This document shows positions 1 to 25,622 of a stretch of DNA of 32,443 bases, piece after piece. The translations under genes and the position numbers were made by a program. The DNA is from a virus (taxonomy: Duplodnaviria > Heunggongvirae > Uroviricota > Caudoviricetes), in the IMG/VR virus record IMGVR_UViG_2541047794_000003; one strand, written 5' to 3'. Below the pieces are notes generated by a model. It did not search any database, was not told the origin of the DNA, and saw only the letters and a list, made by a program, of their open reading frames with translations. Positions within the stretch are counted from its first letter, which is position 1. Each line of letters begins with the position of its first letter.

Positions 1-1131
1 TCAAATGACCAGTTTTTTCCATTCCTTACCGCGTGCGTCGTTGTAAATATCGGTCATTTTTTGATTCGAATGGCCTAGCAAAATTTTGGTATCAACCCCC
101 TGCTCTCTGAACAATCGCTCTGATAAAGATCTCTGCTCATGGAAAGAGGGTGGGGTGCCATTAGCACGCCAGTTGTAATCCACAGAATCCCGGGCTTTTT
201 TAAATGCAACGGTTAATGTTGCTGGCTTAACCATCCCGCCGCGCTTAGCTGTCCCTTTCGCGTGATGGTGGTGCAATAGCCACGGACTAAGAACGCAATC
301 GCGGCAGGATGACACCACATCATCCAGGGTGAGATTTAATTTATCGCAACGCAGAGCCAGAGGGATGGCAATCCGGGTTCCTGTTTTTTGCTGTTCGACA
401 TGAAGATAACCATCCCGGATATCCGAAAATTGCATTTTGCAAATATCTGAAAGGCGCTGGCCTGTCATCAGTGCCAGCAGCATACCGCGCTGTAAAAAGT
501 AACCATCCTTTTCCGCTGCGTTATAAATCATCATCCACTCATCAAAAGTCAGTCGCTGTCTTGATATCCGCACCTGCGGTTTTTTTGCCGATTCTGCAGG
601 GTTAAAGCCTGGCGGGACATCGCCCGTTTGCTGAGCTTCCCGGAAAACATCGATCAGTACTTTCCTGAAAATTTGTCCCATTCTGTTATGTCCTCTGGCC
701 TTGTACTCTTCCAGTACTGATACCACATCTTTTACGGTTATGGCATCTAACGGTCTGGTGCCAAAACGTTCATCAAATACCCTGAGAGGGGCCGCTTTCT
801 GTTTCAGCGTGTTGAGTTTGATCTCGCCGTTTTCATATCTTTCCTGTTGAATTTTTCTGTAATTATTCAGAAAAATGGTAACGGTTGATGAACCGCCGGT
901 ATCACTAATAATTTTCTCCTGCAGACTGAGCATTTGTTCCATTTGCTGCCGGGCAAGACGGCTGTTCGCTTCTGCTGCAATAGTTTCTGCCAGTTTCTGG
1001 TCAATACTGCCGAGACCGTGATTTTTGCCTGTTATGGGATGCCTGTAACGCCAGTAAACTTTGTTATTTCTTTTGTCAAAATACGGAGATAATCCCGGAA
1101 CATCGGTTTTATATTTTCGCGGGCGCGCCAT
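1..1131 (-). CDS. int: Phage integrase, tyrosine recombinase (lambda Int family)
   Basis: 376-aa ORF; C-terminal ...LLGHSNQKMTDIYNDARGKEW typical of lambda-type integrases; ATG at 1129-1131, stop at 1-3; overlapped at its 5' end by an excisionase-like ORF. Confidence 0.9.
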   Translation of the reverse strand: MARPRKYKTDVPGLSPYFDKRNNKVYWRYRHPITGKNHGLGSIDQKLAETIAAEANSRLARQQMEQMLSLQEKIISDTGGSSTVTIFLNNYRKIQQERYENGEIKLNTLKQKAAPLRVFDERFGTRPLDAITVKDVVSVLEEYKARGHNRMGQIFRKVLIDVFREAQQTGDVPPGFNPAESAKKPQVRISRQRLTFDEWMMIYNAAEKDGYFLQRGMLLALMTGQRLSDICKMQFSDIRDGYLHVEQQKTGTRIAIPLALRCDKLNLTLDDVVSSCRDCVLSPWLLHHHHAKGTAKRGGMVKPATLTVAFKKARDSVDYNWRANGTPPSFHEQRSLSERLFREQGVDTKILLGHSNQKMTDIYNDARGKEWKKLVI

Positions 1132-1421: not shown

Positions 1422-3893
1422 TTAAAAATCAGCCTGATTCGGGATCAGTTTTTGCCAGATAACTGAAACGTATTTTGCCTGGTAACGGGCGTCATCAAGT
1501 GCATTATGGCGCTCACCTTCGAATGGAATAGCCGTTCTGGCATCGAAGTCTATGGCTTTCCCCAGCTCAACGATTGTGCGTACATCGCGATCGTTGTAGT
1601 AACGCCATGGGCAGGGGATCCCCTGCCGTTCGTATGAACGGCGCAAAATCGTGTTGTCGAAGTTGGCTCCATTTCCCCAGACCTGAACAAAAAATTCGCC
1701 GGAGTTTTCGTCGATAAATTCCCGCAATTGCAGCAGTGCATCATCTAACGGGATTTCATCGGTCAGAATGGCAGATTGCGCCTCCCGTGATTGCTTAAGC
1801 CACCATTTAATGGTGCCACGATCAATGACTCCGCCAGCAGTATCCATATCGATGGTCTTACTAAATTCCGGCCCCATATCTCCGGTTTGCGGATCGAAAA
1901 ATATTGCACCTATTGAGATAAGCGGGGCATCGGGATTTTTTCCCATGGTTTCAAGGTTGATCATCATGTGGTGCCACATTCTGCTGGTGGATGTGATAAC
2001 GTGATGACCGTTCATCGCAATTAAGGGATCTGCCGTCTCGCCAGTTTCACTATCGCTGGCGTGATCCTGAGCGCTACCAGCATTCTCCTTGTGTGGATGT
2101 TCAGCGCCTTCCATTTCCTTCGGATCATTTTCCTGAACTTCAACCTGATTCTCTTCATCGAATGTTTCCTGGTATGTTGCGTCGCCCATTACCGCGCCAC
2201 AATCAGGGCAGTTGCCACCACCGCTTTGACCGCAGGCGGTGCAGACTTTTTCCGGTTCCTGTTGCGCTACTGGCTCAGGTTGTTTCGTTTCTGGCTCGTT
2301 TTGTAACGCATTTGGGCTGTTTTGTTCCGCTTTCTGGCCGTTCTGTTCCGTTTCTTGTTGGTTCTGATTCACTGAATCGCGGGTTTCAATCCCCTTCACC
2401 CATTTCGGATCATTCGGGTCGCTAATCCCTGCAACAAATTCACCACGTGATACAGCAAGCAACTTATTGGCGTCAGGCTGGCTGATATTGGCTGCCTGCA
2501 TAATTTTGTTTACTTCGTCAGCGGTAACTTTTACCGGCTCTGGTTGTGCGATCGTGTCAGATGCACCAGTATTTTGTTGTGAACCTGAGTATGTACTGTT
2601 TTTGCGGGCGAAATATTCTTCTTTCGTGATTTCAGTAGCCCCAGCAGACAGCGCCTTATCCAGACCAGAAAGTTTGTTTGCGCGACCGTATTTTTCGCCA
2701 TCCTTGTCGGTGAAGAGGAAGTAGAACGGCCCCTCACGTTCTACAGATGGTTCGACTTCCACTTTGCATTCGGTTTTTTCGTTGTCCGGAATTGCCGTTT
2801 CCACTGCATCAGTTTCTGGTACTGGCGACGAGAGAGTATCAGTTGCGCTCTGATTTGTTCCTTCATCTTCAAACACGCCCTTTGTAGTCAGGTATTCAGT
2901 AATGTATTTGTTCAGTGCCACAGGGTCTTTGTGAATGTCGATCGGACGTTCACGGACAAGGCCAAAAATAGTCTGGCGGTCGTAGCGAAGGGCATCAGGC
3001 TGTTTGCGCATTGATGCCGAGATACGCTTCCAGTCTTCGCGGTCGTTGTCGATAACTTCATTTTTTGCCCAGCGATGGATGCTGCCGTCAATGTTTCCGG
3101 CATCCACATCACCAGGCCAGAGAGCGTAGGCCAGTTCGTCATCCAGTGTTTTCCATGTCTGCTTGTATTCGCGATGAATGGCAGCAATGACCGGGTTGAT
3201 TTTTCCTGTTGAATTTTCAGTGTGCTGTTGATTGGCTCTGGCGCGGGCGAGATCAACAACAGACGTGTATTTTCCGGCTTCCTTGCGTTCACCTTCGCGA
3301 CGTTTTTTCCAGATGCGCATCTCTGCCTGAATTTCGGGCCATTTGGCACCAGGCTTACATTTATGCTTAACCCACCCGATGGCATGCAGCTTAAGCTCCG
3401 GATACATGGCGTTAACTTCTGGCATTTTCATCAACGCTTCAACGATATGTCCGTCGAATGTTGCCATGTCTTCCTGCAACAATTCCTGTGCGCTAATAAC
3501 CATATCAACGGTGATGTTTTCACATGTGTCGAACTTAACCATGACAGCGTTCTGTACTTCAGGGGCCAGCTTGTCAAAAGTGACGTTCATCGGATCGGAT
3601 TCAGTCTCAACCGGGACAAAGGAAGCAGACTCCTCATCCCAGCGGTTTTCCTGCATATATTCAGCATCCCAGGAATCGAGGGCAGGGCGGGGTATACCGG
3701 GTTTATCCTCGCAGACAAGAAATTTATAAGCGCAGTCCTGAGCAGCCGGATAATGCTCCAGGAATTGCCAGTGAAATTTTGCGCGGGCGCGACGTTCATC
3801 ACCGGCTTCAATGGCAGTGGCTACAGCGACGGCACCTTCTTCCTTTATTGCCTGTTCGTCCGGAATGGCGGCGCAAATAAAGACTTTACTCAT
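1422..3893 (-). CDS. Large prophage exonuclease (exodeoxyribonuclease VIII-like annotation class); C-terminal DEDDh/DnaQ-like 3'-5' exonuclease domain, central acidic linker with CxxC...CxxC zinc ribbon
   Basis: 823-aa ORF; C-terminal ~200 aa ending ...HNALDDARYQAKYV (DnaQ-like motif III); CTACGQSGGGNCPDCG zinc-ribbon motif; GAGGT SD upstream of ATG at 3891-3893. Confidence 0.7.
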   Translation of the reverse strand: MSKVFICAAIPDEQAIKEEGAVAVATAIEAGDERRARAKFHWQFLEHYPAAQDCAYKFLVCEDKPGIPRPALDSWDAEYMQENRWDEESASFVPVETESDPMNVTFDKLAPEVQNAVMVKFDTCENITVDMVISAQELLQEDMATFDGHIVEALMKMPEVNAMYPELKLHAIGWVKHKCKPGAKWPEIQAEMRIWKKRREGERKEAGKYTSVVDLARARANQQHTENSTGKINPVIAAIHREYKQTWKTLDDELAYALWPGDVDAGNIDGSIHRWAKNEVIDNDREDWKRISASMRKQPDALRYDRQTIFGLVRERPIDIHKDPVALNKYITEYLTTKGVFEDEGTNQSATDTLSSPVPETDAVETAIPDNEKTECKVEVEPSVEREGPFYFLFTDKDGEKYGRANKLSGLDKALSAGATEITKEEYFARKNSTYSGSQQNTGASDTIAQPEPVKVTADEVNKIMQAANISQPDANKLLAVSRGEFVAGISDPNDPKWVKGIETRDSVNQNQQETEQNGQKAEQNSPNALQNEPETKQPEPVAQQEPEKVCTACGQSGGGNCPDCGAVMGDATYQETFDEENQVEVQENDPKEMEGAEHPHKENAGSAQDHASDSETGETADPLIAMNGHHVITSTSRMWHHMMINLETMGKNPDAPLISIGAIFFDPQTGDMGPEFSKTIDMDTAGGVIDRGTIKWWLKQSREAQSAILTDEIPLDDALLQLREFIDENSGEFFVQVWGNGANFDNTILRRSYERQGIPCPWRYYNDRDVRTIVELGKAIDFDARTAIPFEGERHNALDDARYQAKYVSVIWQKLIPNQADF

Positions 3894-16533: not shown

Positions 16534-16609
16534 GGCCCTTTAGCTCAGTGGTGAGAGCGAGCGACTCATAATCGCCAGGTCGCTGGTTCAAATCCAGCAA
16601 GGGCCACCA
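16534..16609 (+). tRNA. ileZ: tRNA-Ile (anticodon CAT, lysidine type; ileZ-like)
   Basis: 76-nt cloverleaf GGCCCTT...AAGGGCC-A-CCA; anticodon loop CTCATAA; near-identical architecture to E. coli tRNA-Ile2. Confidence 0.8.
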
Positions 16610-16616
16610 TCACATA

Positions 16617-16693
16617 CCGCCATTAGCTCATCAGGAAAGAGCGCCAGCCTTCGAAGCTGGTTGCGCGGAGTTCGGGTCCCCGAAGGCGGTCCA
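16617..16693 (+). tRNA. tRNA-Arg (anticodon TCG as read), atypical
   Basis: Cloverleaf with anticodon stem CCAGC/GCTGG and loop CTTCGAA; one mismatch in acceptor stem (A6:A67) and one in T-stem, T-loop TTCGGGT; ends CCA. Confidence 0.55.
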
Positions 16694-16706
16694 TTATCTG
16701 TATCCT

Positions 16707-16783
16707 GCGTTGTTAGCTCAGCCGGACAGAGCAATTGCCTTCTAAGCAATCGGTCACTGGTTCGAATCCAGTACAACGCGCCA
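16707..16783 (+). tRNA. argO: tRNA-Arg (anticodon TCT, reads AGA)
   Basis: Perfect acceptor stem GCGTTGT/ACAACGC, anticodon loop CTTCTAA, T-loop TTCGAAT, discriminator G, CCA. Confidence 0.8.
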
Positions 16784-17759: not shown

Positions 17760-19613
17760 ATGGCATTTAAACACTATGACGTGGTCAGGGCGGTATCGCC
17801 GTCAGACCTTGCGAAACGACTGACACAAAAACTGAAGGAGGGCTGGCAGCCGTTTGGTAGTCCGGTGGCCATAACCCCTTATACCCTGATGCAGGCGATT
17901 GCAGCAGAAGGTGATGTGGTGGTCAGTGGTGCAACTGAGCCGGATTGGTACTACGTCATCGTACTGGCCGGGCAGTCCAATGCCATGGCTTACGGTGAAG
18001 GGCTTCCGCTGCCGGATTCATACGATGCGCCCCATCCGCGCATTAAGCAACTGGCCCGTCGTAACACAGTGACTCCCGGTGGTGAAGTATGCGTATTTAA
18101 CGACATCATTCCTGCTGACCATTGTCTGCATGATGTTCAAGATATGAGTACGATTAACCATCCCCGGGCTGACCTGAGCAAAGGGCAGTACGGCTGTGTC
18201 GGACAGGGCTTACATATTGCCAAAAAACTGCTTCCGTATATCCCTAATAACGCGGGGATCCTGCTGGTACCATGCTGTCGTGGTGGTTCGGCATTCACCC
18301 AGGGCACGGAGGGGACATTCAGCGAGTCCACGGGGGCCAGTCAGGATTCGGCTCGCTGGGGAGTGGGTAAGCCGTTATATCAGGATCTGCTTTTCCGCAC
18401 GAAGGCAGCATTGCAGAAAAACCCGAAAAACGTTTTGCTGGCGATATGCTGGATGCAGGGGGAATTCGATATGACGAATGCCAGTTACGCCCAGCAGCCA
18501 GCAGCATTTCTTGCAATGGTACAGCAGTTCCGTGCTGACCTTGCCGGGCTGGCGGCGCAGTGTCACGGTGGAAGTCCGGCATCAGTCCCCTGGATTTGTG
18601 GCGACACGACATACGCGTGGAAACAAGAACACGGTACGCAATATGAAGTGGTATATGGTGCATATAAAGGTAAAGAATCCCAGCAGATTTATTTTGTTCC
18701 CTTTATGACCGATGGTAGCGGAGTTAATACACCGACAAACAACCCGTCAGAAGATCCTGATATTGCCGGGTCTGGTTATTACGGTTCGGCATCCCGAACG
18801 AACAAAAACTGGGTATCATCAAATCGCCCGACGCATTTCAGCTCATGGGCGCGTCGTGGCATTATTCCCGATCGTATGGCAACTGCTATTCTGAACGTAG
18901 CCGGTCGCACCTTAGCCTTCATTAGTGGTAAGGCACCGGAAATCAAACCCTCGCCCGGCGGCGACACGCCATCGGGGCCGTCTGAAGATGCATCCGTACG
19001 CACAATCTCCCTGTTGCCGACAGCCGGAGATGCTGCTGCGCAGGGCTGGAGCATTAAGAATGGCGGAATTCAGTTGTCAGAGGGTGTATTTAAGATCACC
19101 AAGCAGAGCAATAAAACCTGGTACCTGATGCATCCGGTGGATGACGCAATTACCCTGCTGACACAGGGCGGCAGACTGACCTGTAAGTTCCGCCTCTCAG
19201 GCGCACTGACCAACAATCAGTTCGGGCTGGGGATTTATCTGTATACGGACGCTCCCGTTCCTGATGATGTGGCGATGACGGGTACTGGTAATCCGTTCCT
19301 GATGTCTTACTTCACTCAGACCACTGACGGCAGAGTGAATCTGATGCATCACAGGAAAGCCGGAAACACGAAGCTGGGGGAGTTTGGCGATTACGGTAAC
19401 GACTGGCAGACGCTGGAGCTGGTGTTCACCGCCGGCAGTGCCACGGTTACTCCGAAACTGAATGGAGTGGCTGGCCCGGCATTCCAGGTCATAAAAGACA
19501 GTCTGACACTGGGGCTGAATGCGCTGACGCTGACGGATGTTACAAAAAATGCAGCGTATGGCGTTGAGATAGAAAGTCTGGTGCTGGAGATAAATGCACC
19601 GGCATCATCATAA
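17760..19613 (+). CDS. Prophage sialate O-acetylesterase (NanS-p type): N-terminal DUF1737 plus SGNH/SASA esterase domain
   Basis: 617 aa; GGGAGG SD; GQSNAMAYGEG esterase motif; sits downstream of the tRNA cluster as in Stx-phage late regions. Confidence 0.75.
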   Translation: MAFKHYDVVRAVSPSDLAKRLTQKLKEGWQPFGSPVAITPYTLMQAIAAEGDVVVSGATEPDWYYVIVLAGQSNAMAYGEGLPLPDSYDAPHPRIKQLARRNTVTPGGEVCVFNDIIPADHCLHDVQDMSTINHPRADLSKGQYGCVGQGLHIAKKLLPYIPNNAGILLVPCCRGGSAFTQGTEGTFSESTGASQDSARWGVGKPLYQDLLFRTKAALQKNPKNVLLAICWMQGEFDMTNASYAQQPAAFLAMVQQFRADLAGLAAQCHGGSPASVPWICGDTTYAWKQEHGTQYEVVYGAYKGKESQQIYFVPFMTDGSGVNTPTNNPSEDPDIAGSGYYGSASRTNKNWVSSNRPTHFSSWARRGIIPDRMATAILNVAGRTLAFISGKAPEIKPSPGGDTPSGPSEDASVRTISLLPTAGDAAAQGWSIKNGGIQLSEGVFKITKQSNKTWYLMHPVDDAITLLTQGGRLTCKFRLSGALTNNQFGLGIYLYTDAPVPDDVAMTGTGNPFLMSYFTQTTDGRVNLMHHRKAGNTKLGEFGDYGNDWQTLELVFTAGSATVTPKLNGVAGPAFQVIKDSLTLGLNALTLTDVTKNAAYGVEIESLVLEINAPASS

Positions 19614-19983: not shown

Positions 19984-20328
19984 ATGACTCAAAACTATGA
20001 ACTGATTGTGAAAGGGATCCGCAATTTTGAGAATAAAGTTACGGTAACTTTAGCGTTACGGGACAAAAAACGCTTTGACGGTGAAATTTTTGACCTGGAC
20101 ATCTCGCTGGACCGTGTTGAAGGTGCCGCGCTGGAGTTTTATGAGGCAGCAGCCAGAAGGAGCATCAGACAGGTCTTCCTGGATGTTGCTGCCGGGTTAT
20201 GTGAAGGGGATGAGCAGTCGCCGGAAAAGCGCCCCGTAATTTTAGAGGCGCAGGATGTGTTGATAACCTACAGAGGAAAACTACCGGGAATAATTACGGG
20301 TTCTCTGAAGAGTCCGCCGAAATGGTAA
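19984..20328 (+). CDS. Hypothetical protein within lysis cassette
   Basis: 114 aa, ATG 5 nt after holin stop, GGAGAG SD. Confidence 0.55.
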   Translation: MTQNYELIVKGIRNFENKVTVTLALRDKKRFDGEIFDLDISLDRVEGAALEFYEAAARRSIRQVFLDVAAGLCEGDEQSPEKRPVILEAQDVLITYRGKLPGIITGSLKSPPKW

Positions 20329-20566
20329 TTTTACCAGCATATTTTTCATCCAGTAATACAGCAAGCCGCCTGAAAGAGTCTTGTTGTTCCTGAGACCATT
20401 TGGGATTGCATGATTCAAACTGGATTGATGCCAGCGTTGATTGCATCTGTTCCCTTGGAATTGAGAATGCCAGATATGAGAAGGCGACGGTAAGGGTATT
20501 CACGTCTTCCCGAAGCCTGGAAATGCTGTCGAGCAACTCCTGTAGAGAAATGGTGTTATTGTCCAT
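20294..20566 (-). CDS. Hypothetical protein encoded antisense to the lysis cassette
   Basis: 90 aa; GAGGA SD 8 nt upstream of ATG (20564-20566); 3' end overlaps previous plus-strand gene. Confidence 0.45.
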   Translation of the reverse strand: MDNNTISLQELLDSISRLREDVNTLTVAFSYLAFSIPREQMQSTLASIQFESCNPKWSQEQQDSFRRLAVLLDEKYAGKITISADSSENP

Positions 20567-21503: not shown

Positions 21504-21971
21504 ATGAACCGCGTACTGTGCGTGGTCATCATTGCCCTGCTGGTGGCCTGTGGTGCGCTTAGTCTGGGGCTGAATCATTACCGTGATAACGCCATTACCT
21601 ACAAAGCCCAGCGCGACAAAAATGTCAGAGAACTGAAGCTGGCGAACGCGGCAATTACTGACATGCAGATGCGTCAGCGTGATGTTGCTGCGCTCGATGC
21701 AAAATACACGAAGGAGTTAGCTGATGCGAAAGCTGAAAATGAAACTCTTCGCGCTGACGTTGCCGCTGGTCGTAAGCGCCTGCGTATCAACGCCACCTGT
21801 CCAGGTCCCGTGCGTGAAGCCACCGGCACCGCCCGCGTGGATAATGCAACCGGCCCCCAACTGGCAGACACCGTTACACGGGATTATTTCACCCTCAGAG
21901 AGCGGCTGATGACGATGCAGAAGCAACTGGAAGGGGCGCAGGAATATATCCGTACTCAGTGCCTGAAATAA
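21504..21971 (+). CDS. Rz: Rz i-spanin
   Basis: 155 aa, N-terminal TM, coiled coil; strong resemblance to lambda Rz ([17 protein letters not shown]...). Confidence 0.9.
21724..21909 (+). CDS. Rz1: Rz1 o-spanin lipoprotein embedded in +1 frame of Rz
   Basis: 61 aa with lipobox LVVSAC and proline-rich segment, fully nested in Rz. Confidence 0.8.
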
Positions 21972-22321
21972 GTTTTGTTGATGCGCCGTATCGTCGCTGT
22001 ATTCCCTCATTAACAGAGACCGCAGCCCGACAGGGAGACTCCTCTGCGCGAGTGTGCGGGGATAATCAAAAACGATACACACCGGGGTTTACCGCGTTAA
22101 CGGAGCGCGGCGTTGTCCCCTCATAGTCGCCTGTCCGGTGCGATGGTGGAAGAAACCGGATGTTTATCACTATTAATTGATGACACAGAAATGGATTCAT
22201 TGAATTTCAGCACGTTTTTGTATTCGTGTTATTGAACATCTGTTTATTTTACTTTTAACATATTGATAATAAAAAGAGCTGTAAATCTTTAGATGAGTCG
22301 ATTTTGTCCGGGGAAGTTCAA

Positions 22322-22462
22322 ATGGATTTTATGCTGACGGTTTCTGGTGTGGTTATCCTGTCCATTGCTTATACTGCAGATAAATATGGCTGCCATTTGT
22401 TATCACGTATTGGCGCTTATTGTTCGTTGATGCTGATTTTCTCGTCGCTTTTTTTTGAGTAA
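22322..22462 (+). CDS. Candidate 46-aa hydrophobic peptide in AT-rich region
   Basis: GGGGAAG SD, ATG 22322; one TM-like segment; followed by T-run. Confidence 0.3.
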   Translation: MDFMLTVSGVVILSIAYTADKYGCHLLSRIGAYCSLMLIFSSLFFE

Positions 22463-22594
22463 GTTATATTAATTATAACAAATAATTTTCTGTGTTATTT
22501 TTTCAGGCTATCCCGTCAGAGGGGAAGCCTGTACTGCCGGGGAGCGAATGGAAAACTGATGTGTCCGGTAACTGCGTGTTCTGTGAACACCATG

Positions 22595-22780
22595 TTACTT
22601 AATTATGTAATTCATACCCGAACTCTCTGTTGACAGCCTTCTTCTGCAGGCTTCAATAACCCACGCTGAAAAGTTTCCTGAACCTTTCAGATCAAGAGCG
22701 ATGTTAATTTGTTCAATCATCTGGTTTGGAAATCGGATGTTGCGGGTTGTTGTTCTGCGGGTTCTGTTCTTTGATGACAT
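22595..22780 (-). CDS. Ribbon-helix-helix (Arc/MetJ/CopG-like) DNA-binding protein
   Basis: 61 aa; NIRFPNQMIEQINIALDLKGSGNFSAWVIEACRRRL fits RHH beta-alpha-alpha pattern; GGGGAAA SD. Confidence 0.5.
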   Translation of the reverse strand: MSSKNRTRRTTTRNIRFPNQMIEQINIALDLKGSGNFSAWVIEACRRRLSTESSGMNYIIK

Positions 22781-22987
22781 AATGTTTCCCCATATTCAGT
22801 GTTGCTGATTTGTATTATCTGAAGTTGCTTTTACGTTAATTTGATGCAGATCAATTAATACGATACCTGCGTCATAATTGATTATTTCTCGTGGTTTGAT
22901 GGCGTACACACATGTTGTGATAAACCTTATATAGATGATAATCATTATCATTTTCGTGGGTCCTTTCCGGCGATCCGACCGGTTACG

Positions 22988-22999
22988 GGGCGGCGACCT
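22988..22999 (+). other. cosN: 12-nt cohesive end site GGGCGGCGACCT (lambda-type cos)
   Basis: Exact match to the canonical lambda cohesive-end sequence, about 220 bp upstream of the Nu1-like terminase gene; flanking sequence resembles lambda right end ...TCCGAC.GGTTACG. Confidence 0.75.
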
Positions 23000-23215
23000 C
23001 GCGCGTTTTCACTATTTATGAGATTTTTTGAGGGGGTGGTTGTTGTTTAATTGTTTGGTATATCTAATTGATAAGTAAGGTGAAAATAAAATAAATACAA
23101 CAACCTTACGATGTGTTTTGATGTCGTCAATGCGAAAAATGTCAATGATATCAAATGGTTTTGCAAAAACACATGGTTGTTGTTTCGCTTTTTATCGATG
23201 ACTTATGGAGAGGAG

Positions 23216-23722
23216 ATGGCCTTTTTATTGAATAAAAGTGATATGGCCTCCTCCATCGGTATCTCTGTTCAGGCATTTGATAAATGGGGCGTTCCTCCTG
23301 TTGAACGTCGGGGGAGGGAAGTTTTATATGACGTTAAAACTGTACTGGAGATAGATCGCGAGCGGCGACAACACAATCAGAGAACACCTGATGACGGGGG
23401 AGAACTGGAGGAAAGGCTGCTTCGGGCCAGAGCTGAACTGACAGAAGAACAGGCTGTAGCTCAAAAACTTAAAAATCAGGTAACCGAAGGTAAGCTCATC
23501 GATTCAGACTTCTGCGTTTTCGCCCTCAGCAAACTGGCGATGGCATTGTCCAGTACGCTTGATTCCATTCCGTTATCCATGCAGCGACAGTTCCCGGATT
23601 TAACGCCACGTCATATTGACCATCTGAAAACCCTTATTGCAAAGGGCGCAAATCAGTGTGCGCGGGCAGGGGATAAATTACCGGATTTGCTGGATGAATA
23701 TATCAGAGCAACAACTGAATAA
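23216..23722 (+). CDS. nu1: Terminase small subunit (lambda Nu1 type)
   Basis: 168 aa from ATG 23216 with GGAGAGGAG SD; wHTH N-terminus; LPLSMQRQFPDL...HIDHLKT resembles Nu1; 3' end overlaps terminase large subunit start. Confidence 0.85.
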   Translation: MAFLLNKSDMASSIGISVQAFDKWGVPPVERRGREVLYDVKTVLEIDRERRQHNQRTPDDGGELEERLLRARAELTEEQAVAQKLKNQVTEGKLIDSDFCVFALSKLAMALSSTLDSIPLSMQRQFPDLTPRHIDHLKTLIAKGANQCARAGDKLPDLLDEYIRATTE

Positions 23723-25622
23723 TATGGTGGCCGCCGTTTCGGTTGCGCTGCAGCCTCTGGTCAGGGTTGTACCGATGACGGCAGTTGAATGGGCTGACCA
23801 GTATTATTATCTGCCGAAAGAATCCTCATACGGTGACGGCGAATGGAAAACGCTGCCGTTCCAGATCGCCATCATGAACAGTATGGGGAATGATCAGATC
23901 CGCACTGTTAATCTGATTAAATCTGCCCGTGTTGGCTATACAAAGATGTTGCTGGGAGTCGCCGGGTATTTTATTGAGCATAAATCCCGAAACAGTCTGC
24001 TTTTTCAGCCCACGGATTCTGCCGCTGAAGATTTTATGAAGTCTCACGTGGAGGCGACGATTCGGGACGTGCCATGCCTGAAAGATCTTTCCCCGTGGCT
24101 GGGTCGTAAACATCGTGACAATACTCTCATGCTGAAACGCTTTTCATCGGGGGTGGGCTTCTGGTGCCTGGGTGGTGCGGCAGCAAAAAACTACCGTGAA
24201 AAATCCGTGGACGTGGTCTGCTATGACGAACTTTCCTCGTTCGAGCCGGATGTCGAAAAAGAGGGCTCGCCAACCCTGCTGGGGGATAAGCGTATTGAGG
24301 GCTCGGTATGGCCAAAATCCATTCGCGGCTCGACGCCTAAAATAAAAGGCTCCTGCCAGATCGAAAAAGCGGCCAACGAGTCGGCGCATTTCATGCGTTT
24401 TTATGTGCCCTGCCCGCACTGTGGGGAGGCGCAGTATCTGAAATTTGGCGATGAGTCCACGCCTTTTGGCCTTAAATGGGAGAAGGACAGCCCCGAAAGC
24501 GTTTTCTACCTCTGTGAACATCATGGCTGCGTGATCCATCAGTCTGAGCTTGACCAGAGCAACGGGCGGTGGATCTGCGAAAACACGGGGATGTGGACCC
24601 GCGACGGTCTGACGTTTTTCAGCGCCGCGGATAATGAAATTCCGCCGCCGCGCTCCATCACATTCCATATCTGGACGGCGTACAGTCCGTTCACCACCTG
24701 GGTACAGATTGTCTATGACTGGCTGGATGCACTGAAAGATCCCAACGGCCTGAAAACCTTTGTGAACACCACGCTGGGCGAGACCTGGGAAGAGGCCGTG
24801 GGCGAAAAACTCGATCACCAGGTGCTGATGGATAAGGTTGTGCGTTACACGGCTGCGGTGCCTTCCCGGGTGGTTTATCTGACGGCGGGCATTGACTCGC
24901 AGCGAAACCGTTTTGAGATGTATGTCTGGGGATGGGCTCCGGGAGAGGAAGCCTTTCTGGTGGATAAAATCATCATTATGGGGCGTCCCGATGAGGAAGA
25001 GACGCTGTTACGTGTGGATGTGGCGATCAACAAAAAATACCGCCATGCAGACGGAACCGAAATGACCATTTCCCGTGTCTGCTGGGACACCGGGGGGATC
25101 GATGGCGAAATTGTCTATCAGAGGTCAAAAAAACACGGTGTTTTCCGGGTGCTGCCGGTAAAAGGTGCATCTGTTTATGGCAAGCCGGTGATCACCATGC
25201 CAAAAACCCGCAATCAGCGGGGCGTGTATCTGTGCGAAGTGGGGACGGACACCGCAAAAGAAATTCTCTATGCCCGTATGAAAGCCGATCCCACGCCTGT
25301 GGATGAAGCCACGTCGTATGCCATCCGTTTTCCTGATGATCCGGAGATTTTTTCGCAGACAGAGGCGCAGCAACTGGTCGCGGAAGAGCTTGTGGAGAAG
25401 TGGGAAAAAGGAAAGATGCGTCTGCTGTGGGATAACAAAAAGCGGCGTAACGAAGCGCTGGACTGCCTGGTGTATGCCTACGCGGCATTACGTGTGTCCG
25501 TGCAACGCTGGCAGCTTGATCTGGCTGTACTGGCAAAATCCCGGGAAGAAGAGACGACCCGGCCAACCCTTAAAGAACTGGCAGCGAAGCTGTCCGGAGG
25601 AGTGAATGGTTACAGTCGCTGA
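23694..25622 (+). CDS. A: Terminase large subunit (lambda gpA type)
   Basis: 642 aa; extended collinearity with lambda gpA (TAVEWAD..YYLPKES, GFWCLGGAAAKNYREKSVDV, CPHCGEAQYLKFGD...). Confidence 0.95.
   Translation: MNISEQQLNNMVAAVSVALQPLVRVVPMTAVEWADQYYYLPKESSYGDGEWKTLPFQIAIMNSMGNDQIRTVNLIKSARVGYTKMLLGVAGYFIEHKSRNSLLFQPTDSAAEDFMKSHVEATIRDVPCLKDLSPWLGRKHRDNTLMLKRFSSGVGFWCLGGAAAKNYREKSVDVVCYDELSSFEPDVEKEGSPTLLGDKRIEGSVWPKSIRGSTPKIKGSCQIEKAANESAHFMRFYVPCPHCGEAQYLKFGDESTPFGLKWEKDSPESVFYLCEHHGCVIHQSELDQSNGRWICENTGMWTRDGLTFFSAADNEIPPPRSITFHIWTAYSPFTTWVQIVYDWLDALKDPNGLKTFVNTTLGETWEEAVGEKLDHQVLMDKVVRYTAAVPSRVVYLTAGIDSQRNRFEMYVWGWAPGEEAFLVDKIIIMGRPDEEETLLRVDVAINKKYRHADGTEMTISRVCWDTGGIDGEIVYQRSKKHGVFRVLPVKGASVYGKPVITMPKTRNQRGVYLCEVGTDTAKEILYARMKADPTPVDEATSYAIRFPDDPEIFSQTEAQQLVAEELVEKWEKGKMRLLWDNKKRRNEALDCLVYAYAALRVSVQRWQLDLAVLAKSREEETTRPTLKELAAKLSGGVNGYSR

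What the first reader, a model, noticed from the sequence alone, without database searches (positions are those of the whole stretch)
21972..23215. cos site and the AT-rich Rz-to-cos region with an RHH protein and small peptide
The canonical lambda cohesive-end 12-mer GGGCGGCGACCT is present at 22988-22999 with lambda-like flanks, which fixes the virion genome ends and shows the prophage map is permuted relative to the virion. The ~1 kb upstream is markedly AT-rich and encodes a minus-strand ribbon-helix-helix protein (22595-22780) and a candidate 46-aa hydrophobic peptide (22322-22462), convergently arranged.
Basis: partly seen in the sequence, partly recalled or inferred. Interest (0 to 1): 0.45.

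Follow-up and report, generated by a model that had tools for sequence, protein, structure and literature searches.

The report
Lambda-type cos site plus small accessory genes
This is the ordinary DNA-packaging cut site (cos) of a lambda-like E. coli prophage, preceded by two small accessory genes of unknown function that are real but show no sign of being a toxin-antitoxin pair.

Summary
GGGCGGCGACCT sits at 22988-22999, once in 32 kb. About 90% lambda-identical DNA runs from inside the upstream small gene through cosQ (22958-22964) and cosN. Past the nick the sequence diverges into a cosB with three GGTTGTTGT repeats (+/-/+) at R3/R2/R1-like positions. These repeats and the small-terminase DNA-binding domain match phage N15. 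This is the published 'Monarch-type' complex cosB, joined here to lambda's cosN.

The minus-strand ORF is a YlcI/YnfO (DUF3950) protein. Its 49-residue core is under strong purifying selection (pN 0.035, pS 0.51 versus lambda). Lambda carries an unannotated copy. An RHH fold is plausible, but every supporting hit is sub-threshold.

The 46-aa ORF lies on a discrete 490-bp AT-rich cassette (22135-22624) that is present or absent between identical flanks. It is confined to E. coli and keeps frame and hydrophobicity in a 28%-diverged allele (dN/dS ~0.3).

The peptide always sits beside ylcI. But ylcI occurs without it in lambda, DLP12 and a cassette-less prophage, and the genes are convergent. A toxin-antitoxin pairing is therefore unsupported.

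Verdict: known kind, low interest. The open question is what YlcI does.

The parts
21504..21971 (+). Rz (i-spanin), with Rz1 embedded at 21724-21909. This is the last lysis gene and the left border of the interval.
   Evidence: Pfam Phage_lysis, E=4e-51. PGAP names it 'lysis protein'.
21972..22134 (.). Conserved segment with normal GC and no assigned function. In prophages without the cassette, its minus strand encodes the C-terminal tail of YlcI.
   Evidence: About 97% identical to the SHP24 copy. The tail of P0083 (DYEGTTPRSVNAVNPGVYRF) equals the minus-strand translation of 22066-22140.
22135..22624 (.). 490-bp AT-rich cassette (moron-like). It carries a conserved upstream island, the 46-aa ORF, a structured spacer, and the last ~11 codons plus the stop codon of ylcI.
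   Evidence: The block is absent as one piece from L018 and present in the window and L007 between the same flanks. GC is 0.371 against 0.545 in the left flank. There is no junction repeat longer than 5 bp.
22242..22276 (.). 35-bp island that is invariant even in the 81%-diverged allele. It is a candidate regulatory element. It contains the window's only perfect IHF-consensus match (22256-22268, minus strand) and part of a minus-strand promoter-like site (22285-22257).
   Evidence: Function is inferred only. Neither pattern is enriched over shuffled sequence.
22322..22462 (+). 46-aa hydrophobic peptide ORF, MDFMLTVSGVVILSIAYTADKYGCHLLSRIGAYCSLMLIFSSLFFE. It has two hydrophobic segments (~3-17 and ~30-45). 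A GGGGAAG Shine-Dalgarno-like site lies at 22310-16.
   Evidence: ORF listed; PGAP CDS. No family hit in Pfam, NCBIfam, PHROGs or PADLOC. The ORF is kept in the diverged allele with dN/dS 0.31, against 0.85 and 0.58 in the other frames. GRAVY is 1.11, the top 1.6% of small ORFs in the window. Found in E. coli only.
22463..22594 (.). Spacer between the convergent genes, predicted to be structured on both strands. One hairpin (22567-22599) overlaps the ylcI stop codon.
   Evidence: Folding 22440-22600 gives z = -3.4 on the + strand and -3.05 on the - strand. The sequence is poorly conserved in SHP24.
22595..22780 (-). ylcI/ynfO-family gene (DUF3950), 61 aa. The conserved core is codons 1-49 (22634-22780) and the tail is hypervariable. 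It is a probable ribbon-helix-helix DNA-binding protein.
   Evidence: PF13132, E=9e-19. NF041551 above its cut-off. phrog_949. pN 0.035 against pS 0.51 versus lambda. The core is near-invariant and the tail variable. Models show helices at 19-32/37-59 and 19-35/39-54. Weak RHH hits.
22781..22957 (.). Left flank of cos, conserved with lambda. It includes the inverted repeat ATCAATTAATACG/CGTCATAATTGAT (22850-22882). It travels with the lambda-type cos, not with ylcI.
   Evidence: 92% identical to lambda over 22781-22900. Inverted repeat. In HNH-type loci, similarity stops at the ylcI start codon.
22958..22964 (+). cosQ (GGGTCCT), the packaging-termination signal.
   Evidence: Identical to lambda, L004, L005 and others at the same offset, 24-30 bp left of the nick. 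PMC4669245 describes cosQ as a highly conserved 7-bp site. The exact lambda coordinates (48473-48479) are from my own knowledge.
22986..23001 (.). cosN, the nicking site. The 12-nt cohesive end is 22988-22999 (GGGCGGCGACCT), so virion bp 1 is predicted to be 22988.
   Evidence: Exact match and unique in the window. Aligned to lambda's ends. The definition of cosN as 12 bp plus 2 flanking bp on each side is from PMC9026076.
23005..23037 (.). I2 segment (bp 18-50 of the virion left end).
   Evidence: 71% identical to lambda. The extent of I2 is taken from PMC4856287.
23038..23048 (+). R3-like TerS binding site, GGTTGTTGTTT (bp 51-61).
   Evidence: Same position as lambda R3 (bp 50-65) and N15 R3 (bp 48-60) as given in PMC9026076. 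The same motif lies at bp 50-60 of N15. The motif is enriched in the window: 4 copies against 0.36 expected.
23048..23073 (-). Candidate I1 (IHF) site between R3 and R2: two adjacent one-mismatch matches to WATCAANNNNTTR.
   Evidence: The pattern is not enriched window-wide, so this assignment rests on position only.
23095..23105 (-). R2-like site in inverted orientation (GGTTGTTGTAT on the minus strand; bp 108-118).
   Evidence: Lambda R2 lies at about bp 109-124 and is also inverted.
23175..23188 (+). R1-like site, GGTTGTTGTTTCGC (bp 188-201).
   Evidence: The triple occurs only together with the 168-aa TerS type.
23216..23722 (+). Terminase small subunit (Nu1 family, N15-type DNA-binding domain).
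   Evidence: PF07471, E=1e-21. 48% identical overall to N15 gp1, with residues 1-40 nearly identical and the same ISVQAFDKWG helix. 36% identical to lambda Nu1.
23694..25622 (+). Terminase large subunit (gpA family), which nicks cosN.
   Evidence: GpA_ATPase and GpA_nuclease domains. PGAP CDS.

Best explanation
The interval is the lysis-to-head junction of a lambda-like E. coli prophage.

Its core is a complete lambda-type cos. A TerS dimer (N15-type winged helix-turn-helix) is inferred to bind the three GGTTGTTGT R sites of cosB, probably across an IHF-induced bend. This anchors the gpA-type TerL, which nicks cosN 12 bp apart and leaves GGGCGGCGACCT 5' overhangs. cosQ, 24-30 bp to the left, is needed to cut the downstream cos at the end of packaging. 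Virion bp 1 is therefore predicted at 22988, and the prophage map is a permutation of the virion map.

The DNA between Rz and cos is an accessory slot built by recombination, and it holds two units. The first is ylcI/ynfO. It encodes a small basic protein with a strongly constrained core, is transcribed against the late operon, and is most likely a dimeric ribbon-helix-helix DNA-binding regulator. Lambda has it too. The second is a 490-bp AT-rich cassette that is present or absent between identical flanks. It encodes a 46-aa peptide with two hydrophobic segments, most likely a small inner-membrane protein, and also supplies the 3' end of ylcI.

The two small genes are neighbours because the cassette's right junction lies inside ylcI, not because they form a toxin-antitoxin pair.

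Shown: sequence identity, positions, co-variation, selection and cassette boundaries. Inferred: cleavage, binding, the RHH fold, membrane location and expression.
For: cos:
- Unique exact 12-mer.
- 91% identity to lambda across cosQ-cosN, falling to 34% in cosB.
- GGTTGTTGT occurs 4 times against 0.36 expected, with three copies in +/-/+ order at bp 51, 110 and 188.
- Lambda R3 is at bp 50-65 and N15 R3 at bp 48-60 (PMC9026076). N15 carries the same motif at bp 50-60, and its TerS has a near-identical N-terminal domain.
- R motifs co-vary with the TerS type in lambda, SHP24, O103 and L008-L016.
- Nu1-family TerS, gpA TerL, lambda portal, capsid E and lambda integrase are all intact in the window.
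- The tripartite N15-specificity cosB is the published 'Monarch' class (PMC4669245).

ylcI:
- Pfam and NCBIfam hits above their cut-offs.
- pN/pS about 0.07.
- Core invariant, tail variable.
- Present in lambda at 48127-48303.
- Transcribed in K-12: ybcW-ylcI is listed as a convergent pair (PMC12288877).
- RHH-compatible helices and register.

Cassette:
- Clean 490-bp presence/absence, with GC 0.37.
- ORF, Shine-Dalgarno-like site and hydrophobicity kept in the diverged allele; dN/dS 0.31.
- Disrupted variants are rare, whereas the exact sequence is indexed in 14,746 blocks.

Against pairing:
- ylcI-cos DNA is in 4357 genomes; the cassette is in 734.
- ylcI occurs without the peptide in lambda, DLP12 and L018.
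Against: - No experimental data on cleavage, induction or expression exist for this prophage, so cos could be a relic of a no-longer-inducible element.
- The IHF (I1) site is only a positional guess.
- All RHH evidence is sub-threshold. Foldseek on the monomer model found nothing, and the two models have pLDDT of only 63-68.
- Coding evidence for the peptide rests on two alleles and 24 substitutions. T-rich DNA yields hydrophobic ORFs by composition. Frameshifted variants exist.
- No convincing sigma-70 promoter was found for either small gene.
- The peptide was never seen without ylcI (10 of 10 contexts), so a one-way dependence cannot be excluded.
Confidence: 0.8

Rival explanations
1. The peptide and YlcI form a toxin-antitoxin-like or addiction module. 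The hydrophobic peptide damages the membrane, and YlcI (RHH) represses or neutralises it.
For: The peptide is small and hydrophobic like type I toxins. RHH proteins are common antitoxins and autorepressors, and YlcI has a faint HicB-like PHROG hit. The peptide is always next to an intact ylcI, in 10 of 10 contexts.
Against: The genes are convergent, not co-transcribed. The YlcI core is invariant whatever its neighbour is, and it occurs without the peptide in lambda, DLP12, L018 and most of the 4357 genomes. The linkage is explained by the cassette junction lying inside ylcI. There is no PADLOC or Pfam toxin hit and no Rfam antisense RNA.
Confidence: 0.07
2. The 46-aa ORF is not translated. It is a compositional by-product of T-rich DNA, and the cassette is inert filler or acts only at the DNA/RNA level.
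For: The ORF has no homolog outside E. coli and no family match. The + strand is strongly T-rich here, with AT skew near -0.35. Frameshift variants exist. The most conserved part of the cassette is non-coding, the 22242-22276 island. The spacer is structured.
Against: Frame, start codon, Shine-Dalgarno-like site and two-segment hydropathy are all kept across 18% DNA divergence. dN/dS is 0.31 in-frame, against 0.58-0.85 out of frame. Substitutions are mostly conservative (V/I, S/A, M/I). The exact sequence is extremely common compared with disrupted forms.
Confidence: 0.2
3. The peptide gene and ylcI regulate each other through convergent, overlapping transcription (an excludon). Late or own-promoter transcription of the + strand then interferes with ylcI, and the reverse.
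For: In K-12, the equivalent convergent pair ybcW-ylcI is listed among excludons detected in at least 50% of RNA-seq samples (PMC12288877). Only 132 bp separate the ORFs, and no canonical terminator lies between them. ylcI lies antisense to the late transcript.
Against: There are no transcript maps for this prophage. The same would hold for any gene placed there, so it says little about function. The spacer sequence is poorly conserved.
Confidence: 0.2
4. The cos is a non-functional relic of a defective prophage, so it defines no virion ends.
For: Many E. coli lambdoid prophages are defective, and DLP12 keeps a lambda-like cos next to nohD. No induction data are available.
Against: All cos sub-sites are intact and correctly spaced. 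TerS, TerL, portal, capsid, lysis genes and integrase are full-length ORFs with strong family matches. The R sites match the adjacent TerS type.
Confidence: 0.15

Closest known systems
Bacteriophage lambda cos (cosQ-cosN-I2-cosB) with Nu1/gpA terminase
   Same: The 12-nt cohesive-end sequence is identical, and so is cosQ at the same offset. I2 is conserved. cosB has three R sites, with R2 inverted and R3 at bp ~51. It lies between Rz and the small terminase gene, and a ylcI homolog sits just to the left.
   Different: The R-site sequence is GGTTGTTGT, against lambda's CGTTTCC. The TerS DNA-binding domain is only ~36% identical to Nu1. R1 and the TerS start lie ~38 bp further from cosN.
N15 / 'Monarch' packaging-specificity class (Feiss et al., PMC4669245)
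   Same: The TerS N-terminal domain and recognition helix are nearly identical to N15 gp1. The same R3 motif lies within 1 bp of the same distance from the nick. cosB is tripartite, as described for Monarch.
   Different: cosN here is lambda's. N15 differs at bp 9 and 12 (GGGCGGCGTCCG). N15 itself has a simple one-R cosB. I did not have the Monarch sequence to compare directly.
YlcI (DLP12) / YnfO (Qin) family, Pfam DUF3950, NCBIfam NF041551
   Same: Hits are above the curated cut-offs. The NFS motif is conserved. Size, position and orientation next to the packaging genes are the same.
   Different: The C-terminal tail differs, because here it is supplied by the cassette. The family has no known function.
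Ribbon-helix-helix repressors (P22 Arc/Mnt, CopG, CdbA)
   Same: The predicted pattern is the same: a basic arm, a short strand (NIRF), helix A, a G-x-x-N-F-S turn, then helix B. The register agrees with Arc 9-29, CdbA 7-37 and a CopG-family chain.
   Different: No hit reaches significance and no dimer model could be made. Pfam does not match any RHH family at threshold.
Phage 'morons' in the lambda Rz-cos interval (bor, ybcV, ybcW)
   Same: A discrete, compositionally distinct insertion in the same slot, present or absent between conserved flanks.
   Different: No sequence similarity to bor, ybcV or ybcW. Its own promoter and terminator are not demonstrated.
Type I toxins (Hok, Ldr, TisB, ZorO)
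   Same: A small hydrophobic peptide carried on a mobile element.
   Different: It has two hydrophobic segments, not one. No antisense RNA or family match was found, and toxicity is untested.

Membership tests
lambda-like cos | 12-base 5' cohesive-end sequence with strong identity to lambda's | tested here: met
   Exact GGGCGGCGACCT at 22988-22999. Actual cleavage was not tested.
lambda-like cos | Conserved 7-bp cosQ about 30 bp left of cosN | tested here: met
   GGGTCCT at 22958-22964, at the same offset as in lambda.
lambda-like cos | cosB with TerS-binding R sites (R3-I1-R2-R1, R2 inverted) at a fixed distance from cosN | tested here: met
   Three GGTTGTTGT copies in +/-/+ order at bp 51, 110 and 188. 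The motif is enriched and co-varies with the TerS type.
lambda-like cos | IHF site (I1) between R3 and R2 | tested here: inconclusive
   There are two one-mismatch consensus matches at 23048-23073, but the pattern is not enriched in the window.
lambda-like cos | Adjacent Nu1-family TerS and gpA-family TerL genes | tested here: met
   PF07471, PF05876 and PF20454.
lambda-like cos | Terminase cuts here in vivo, giving virion ends | not testable with these tools
   This needs virion DNA end mapping.
N15/Monarch packaging specificity | TerS recognition helix identical to N15 gp1, and a matching R3 motif at the same distance from the nick | tested here: met
   ISVQAFDKWG in both proteins. GGTTGTTGTTT is at bp 51-61 here and bp 50-60 in N15.
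YlcI/YnfO (DUF3950) | Score above the curated Pfam/NCBIfam cut-offs; conserved NFS motif | tested here: met
   PF13132 at 67.5 bits (cut-off 25). NF041551 at 35.2 bits (cut-off 30). NFS is invariant in A3.
Ribbon-helix-helix superfamily | Significant sequence or structure similarity to a known RHH | tested here: inconclusive
   Best values: CdbA E=0.08, CopG-family chain E=0.64, RHH_6 E=0.09, HicB-like PHROG E=0.012, Arc hhalign P=0.02. Foldseek found nothing.
Ribbon-helix-helix superfamily | Strand-helix-helix topology forming an intertwined dimer | not testable with these tools
   Monomer models give the two helices and an extended N-terminus.
Type II toxin-antitoxin | Toxin and antitoxin co-transcribed in one operon | tested here: not met
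   The genes are convergent, 132 bp apart.
Type II toxin-antitoxin | The partners co-occur reciprocally | tested here: not met
   The peptide always has ylcI beside it. ylcI occurs without the peptide in lambda, DLP12 and L018, and in most genomes.
Type I toxin-antitoxin | Small hydrophobic toxin plus a cis- or trans-encoded antisense RNA | tested here: inconclusive
   The peptide is hydrophobic. There is no Rfam hit. The only candidate is one weak minus-strand promoter-like site upstream, pointing away from the ORF.
Moron (independent accessory cassette) | Discrete insertion between conserved flanks with a distinct base composition | tested here: met
   A 490-bp block is absent from L018. GC is 0.37 against 0.545.
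Moron (independent accessory cassette) | Own promoter and terminator | tested here: inconclusive
   An invariant 35-bp island lies upstream, but the scan found no + strand promoter there and no canonical terminator.

The most novel reading that the evidence does not exclude
YlcI is a cos-proximal RHH regulator shared by lambda and hundreds of prophages. In cassette-bearing phages it controls a membrane-active 46-aa peptide, either directly or through convergent transcription. The pair would then form a new kind of prophage addiction, exclusion or lysis-timing module. Because lambda carries the gene unannotated, this would also give the first function for it.
Probability: 0.07. Interest if true: 0.6.

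Novelty: already known. Interest (0 to 1): 0.2.

Why it matters
For the scan, this fixes the predicted virion ends at 22988 and shows the prophage has an intact, self-consistent packaging module of the N15/Monarch specificity. That is useful for annotation and for predicting which helper terminases could package it.

The only open biology is in the two small genes. YlcI is one of the most strongly conserved small proteins of lambdoid phages. It sits next to cos in lambda itself, where the reference record does not annotate it, and it has no known function. The peptide cassette is a widespread, E. coli-restricted orphan. Neither is surprising in kind, because accessory genes in the Rz-cos slot are well known.

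Tried and rejected
- **Rfam scan of 21800-23400:** only chance-level eukaryotic or archaeal hits.
- **PADLOC:** nothing for either small protein.
- **Promoter/terminator scan:** fewer promoter-like sites than in shuffles, and no convincing site for either small gene.
- **Structure of YlcI:** PDB sequence searches with the single sequence and the close profile gave nothing relevant. Foldseek with the monomer model gave nothing. A second model from a more diverse alignment did not improve confidence.
- **The search for related loci with the diverse YlcI alignment:** failed because no stretch was conserved enough.
- **Pasteurella phage hit labelled 'transcriptional repressor':** I considered it as a bridge to a known fold and rejected it. 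The match is to an unannotated ORF on the opposite strand.
- **Fourth GGTTGTTGT copy inside ylcI (22745):** considered as an accessory TerS site like N15's rR2 and rejected. It is present whatever the TerS type, lambda included, so it is a coincidence of the coding sequence.
- **Conserved block upstream of ylcI (22781-22900):** considered as the ylcI promoter/operator. It travels with the lambda-type cos, not with ylcI, so that assignment is unsupported.
- **cosB as a new specificity class:** rejected once N15 was compared.
- **Literature search for a YlcI/YnfO/DUF3950 function:** no functional study found.
Full report

Yes. GGGCGGCGACCT occurs once in the window, at 22988-22999 on the + strand. 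Even with one mismatch allowed, shuffled sequence gives 0.13 matches.

The window is an E. coli lambdoid prophage. Positions 21972-23215 are 100% identical to several RefSeq chromosomes. In those records PGAP annotates a 46-aa 'hypothetical protein' at 22322-22462 (+) and a 'YlcI/YnfO family protein' at 22595-22780 (-). These lie between a 'lysis protein' (Rz) and a terminase small subunit. The two small genes are convergent, 132 bp apart.

GC falls to 0.32-0.41 between about 22100 and 23300, against 0.50-0.57 on either side. The first 160 bp of the stated interval (21972-22134) have normal GC.

The wider context fits the permuted-map statement. The window has a lambda-type integrase at 1-1131 (-), then early genes, the lysis genes, cos, a gpA-type large terminase, a lambda-family portal and capsid protein E.

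**2. Anatomy of cos**

Aligned to lambda, the window is 86% identical over the YlcI core and 92% over the 120 bp upstream of it. It is 91% identical over cosQ-cosN, 71% over I2, and only 34% over the cosB interval. GGGTCCT at 22958-22964 sits at the same offset from the nick as in lambda and in every other lambda-type locus I fetched. The literature describes cosQ as a highly conserved 7-bp element required to terminate packaging (PMC4669245, PMC4856287).

To the right of the nick, GGTTGTTGT occurs at 23038 (+), 23097 (-) and 23175 (+). There are four copies in the whole window against 0.36 expected. Counting 22988 as bp 1, the first copy spans bp 51-61. Lambda R3 is at bp 50-65, N15 R3 lies between bp 48 and 60, and the cosN-to-R3 distance is critical (PMC9026076). 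The second copy is inverted at bp 110-118, where lambda R2 is also inverted at about bp 109-124.

The repeat co-varies with the small-terminase DNA-binding domain:
- Lambda has CGTTTCC-type sites with ASIRTIQNWQ.
- The SHP24 prophage has CATGTC-type sites with VDIRTIDRWQ. From memory this resembles phage 21; I did not compare it directly.
- The window, O103 12009, L014 and L015 have the GTTGTTGT triple with ISVQAFDKWG.
- Loci with 181/182-aa Nu1 types lack the triple, although they share cosQ, cosN and the same upstream genes.

The comparison with phage N15 settles the class. N15 gp1 is 48% identical overall and nearly identical over residues 1-40, including the recognition helix. N15 has GGTTGTTGTTT at bp 50-60. 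Feiss and colleagues already described N15-specificity prophages with a tripartite cosB, the 'Monarch' group (PMC4669245). The window belongs to that description, with lambda's cosN in place of N15's (N15 differs at bp 9 and 12).

So the cos is complete, internally consistent and of a known kind. An IHF site between R3 and R2 is only a positional guess: two one-mismatch consensus matches, and the pattern is not enriched.

**3. The minus-strand gene**

It is a DUF3950 / YlcI-YnfO family member. PF13132 scores 67.5 bits against a cut-off of 25, and NF041551 is above its cut-off. It also matches phrog_949, which has no known function.

It is a real protein. Over codons 1-49, pN is 0.035 and pS is 0.51 against lambda, with similar values in all pairs. 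In 32 close homologs, residues 1-49 are nearly invariant while the C-terminal tail is hypervariable. The family is narrow: 183 representative clusters at E<=0.001 among 1.84 billion proteins.

Lambda has the gene at 48127-48303 (-), and NC_001416 annotates no feature there. K-12 DLP12 has it as ylcI, convergent with ybcW. That pair is listed among convergent overlapping transcripts seen in at least half of K-12 RNA-seq samples (PMC12288877), so the gene is transcribed from a prophage. I found no functional study.

**4. Is it an RHH protein?**

Probably, but this is not shown. Two AlphaFold models have mean pLDDT of 68 and 63. They give an extended basic N-terminus followed by helices at 19-32/37-59 and 19-35/39-54. 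This is what an RHH monomer looks like without its partner strand.

The supporting sequence hits are all sub-threshold:
- Distant family members show the pattern K-x-[IV]-R-[FY]-P-x-x-[LM]...[NT]-F-S-A-[WF]-V-[IV]-[ED]-A.
- A profile of them has CdbA as its best PDB hit (E=0.08, aligned over the strand and helix A). I recall CdbA as a ribbon-helix-helix protein.
- A chain named 'Ribbon-helix-helix protein, CopG family' is also found (E=0.64, whole core).
- One family member touches Pfam RHH_6 (E=0.09).
- PHROGs gives faint HicB-like and Arc-like hits.
- hhalign places YlcI 12-32 on Arc 9-29 (P=0.02). I verified the Arc sequence against PDB 1arq.

None of these is significant, though all agree in register. 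Foldseek on the monomer model found nothing, and a dimer model could not be made. I put the RHH fold at about 0.75.

**5. The peptide and its cassette**

A prophage whose YlcI tail reads ...DYEGTTPRSVNAVNPGVYRF (P0083, locus L018) lacks exactly window 22135-22624. This is a 490-bp block that the window and L007 carry between the same flanks. The block has GC 0.37 against 0.545 to its left, and no junction repeat beyond 5 bp.

The block carries, in order:
- a 35-bp island (22242-22276) that is invariant even in the 81%-diverged allele;
- a GGGGAAG Shine-Dalgarno-like site;
- the 46-aa ORF;
- a spacer predicted to be structured on both strands (z -3.4 and -3.05);
- the last ~11 codons and the stop codon of ylcI.

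The cassette therefore explains both the hypervariable YlcI tail and the constant adjacency of the two genes.

The peptide has no family match and no homolog outside E. coli. Two large searches returned only two alleles plus fragments.

Evidence that it is coding is modest but consistent. The diverged allele is MGLMLTIAGVIVLFIACNADKYGYPLLSRIGAYCALILIFSSLFF. It keeps the start, the frame, the Shine-Dalgarno-like site and the two hydrophobic segments. dN/dS is 0.31 in-frame, against 0.85 and 0.58 in the other frames, based on 24 substitutions.

The exact sequence is indexed in 14,746 blocks of the assembly collection, and the cassette is in 734 of 5426 complete E. coli genomes. Frameshifted forms are rare.

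One caveat applies. The + strand is strongly T-rich here, which by itself favours hydrophobic ORFs.

**6. Are the two genes a functional pair?**

The evidence is against it.
- They are convergent, not an operon.
- ylcI-cos DNA is found in 4357 of 5426 genomes and the cassette in 734.
- Lambda and DLP12 have ybcW/ybcV/bor in the slot instead, and L018 has nothing there.
- The YlcI core does not change with its neighbour.
- The cassette-plus-ylcI unit rides with two unrelated packaging modules: lambda-type Nu1/gpA with cos, and HNH + Terminase_2 + TerL without the lambda 12-mer. YlcI is therefore not a cos-specific packaging factor either.
- In the HNH-type loci, similarity stops exactly at the ylcI start codon. 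The well-conserved 120 bp upstream of ylcI here, including the inverted repeat at 22850-22882 that is identical in lambda, belongs to the cos module and not to ylcI.

Cos cleavage stimulates recombination on the left side of cos (PMC3945230). This gives a plausible cause for the dense mosaic junctions in this stretch.

**7. Mechanism, with status of each step**

Shown by sequence:
- all cos sub-sites, their spacing, and the match between R sites and TerS type;
- intact terminase and head genes;
- purifying selection on YlcI;
- the cassette boundaries.

Inferred from established lambda and N15 work (PMC4669245, PMC9026076, PMC4856287):
- TerS binds R3/R2/R1 and anchors TerL;
- TerL nicks cosN to give 12-nt 5' ends starting at 22988;
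- cosQ is needed for the terminal cut.

Inferred with less support:
- YlcI is a dimeric RHH DNA-binding regulator, expressed against the late operon;
- the peptide is a small membrane protein, expressed either from its own upstream element or by late read-through.

**8. Verdict**

The cos interpretation is right, and it can be sharpened: N15/Monarch-type cosB with lambda cosQ and cosN. 'RHH' is plausible. The toxin-antitoxin idea is unsupported.

Everything here is of a known kind and is already catalogued in public annotation. The residual interest is that YlcI is a strongly conserved gene of unknown function, present but unannotated in the lambda reference record.

Noticed in passing
Lambda reference NC_001416, 48127-48303 (-); equivalent to window 22595-22780: Lambda carries a YlcI/YnfO homolog right next to cos, but the reference record has no annotated feature there. 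The core is under strong purifying selection, so the gene appears to be real and overlooked in that record.
   Followed up: partly
L017 (Pasteurella 'phage' Pmp7, OR544138) 2426-2680 (+): A 10.7-kb element with primase and excisionase (satellite/PICI-like) has an unannotated YlcI-like ORF (...KKGIRFPHELIQQIDRAVEV...TNFSSWVIDACKAKL). It lies antisense to an annotated 224-aa 'transcriptional repressor' that looks spurious.
   Followed up: partly
window 16534-16783 and 17760-19613: Three tRNA genes, Met(cat), Arg(tcg) and Arg(tct), are followed after about 1 kb by a 617-aa DUF1737-SASA-DUF6645 esterase-like ORF. From memory this resembles the late region of Stx-converting phages. I did not examine the ~1-kb gap.
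   Followed up: no
window 22745-22753: A fourth copy of the cosB repeat GGTTGTTGT lies inside ylcI, 243 bp left of the nick. It is present whatever the TerS type, lambda included, so it looks like a coincidence of the coding sequence and not an accessory TerS site.
   Followed up: yes
window 22850-22882: A 13/13-nt inverted repeat, ATCAATTAATACG/CGTCATAATTGAT, sits in the cos-left flank about 106-138 bp from the nick. It is identical in lambda and SHP24. The flank (92% identical to lambda) is better conserved than the synonymous sites of the adjacent gene. Its function is unknown, and it travels with the lambda-type cos, not with ylcI.
   Followed up: partly
window 22242-22276: A 35-bp island upstream of the peptide ORF is invariant even in the 81%-diverged allele. 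It contains the window's only perfect match to the IHF consensus (TATCAATATGTTA, 22256-22268, minus strand).
   Followed up: partly
window 22451-22458 (T8 tract at the 3' end of the peptide ORF): The T-tract length varies between copies (T8 or T9). Both lengths give almost the same C-terminus (…LFFE* or …LFF*). A longer slip gives …LFFFLSKLY (P0002, 46 member sequences).
   Followed up: partly
L002, L007, L009, L018 (HNH-type loci): The same Rz - (cassette) - ylcI arrangement is joined to a different packaging module (HNH endonuclease + Terminase_2 + TerL) with no lambda 12-mer. Only 42 bp separate the ylcI start codon from the divergent HNH gene.
   Followed up: partly
window 20294-20566 (-): A 90-aa minus-strand ORF lies between the YdfR-like gene and the lysozyme gene. 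PGAP annotates it as hypothetical in the identical genome (WP_000369850). It is another antisense small gene inside the late operon.
   Followed up: no
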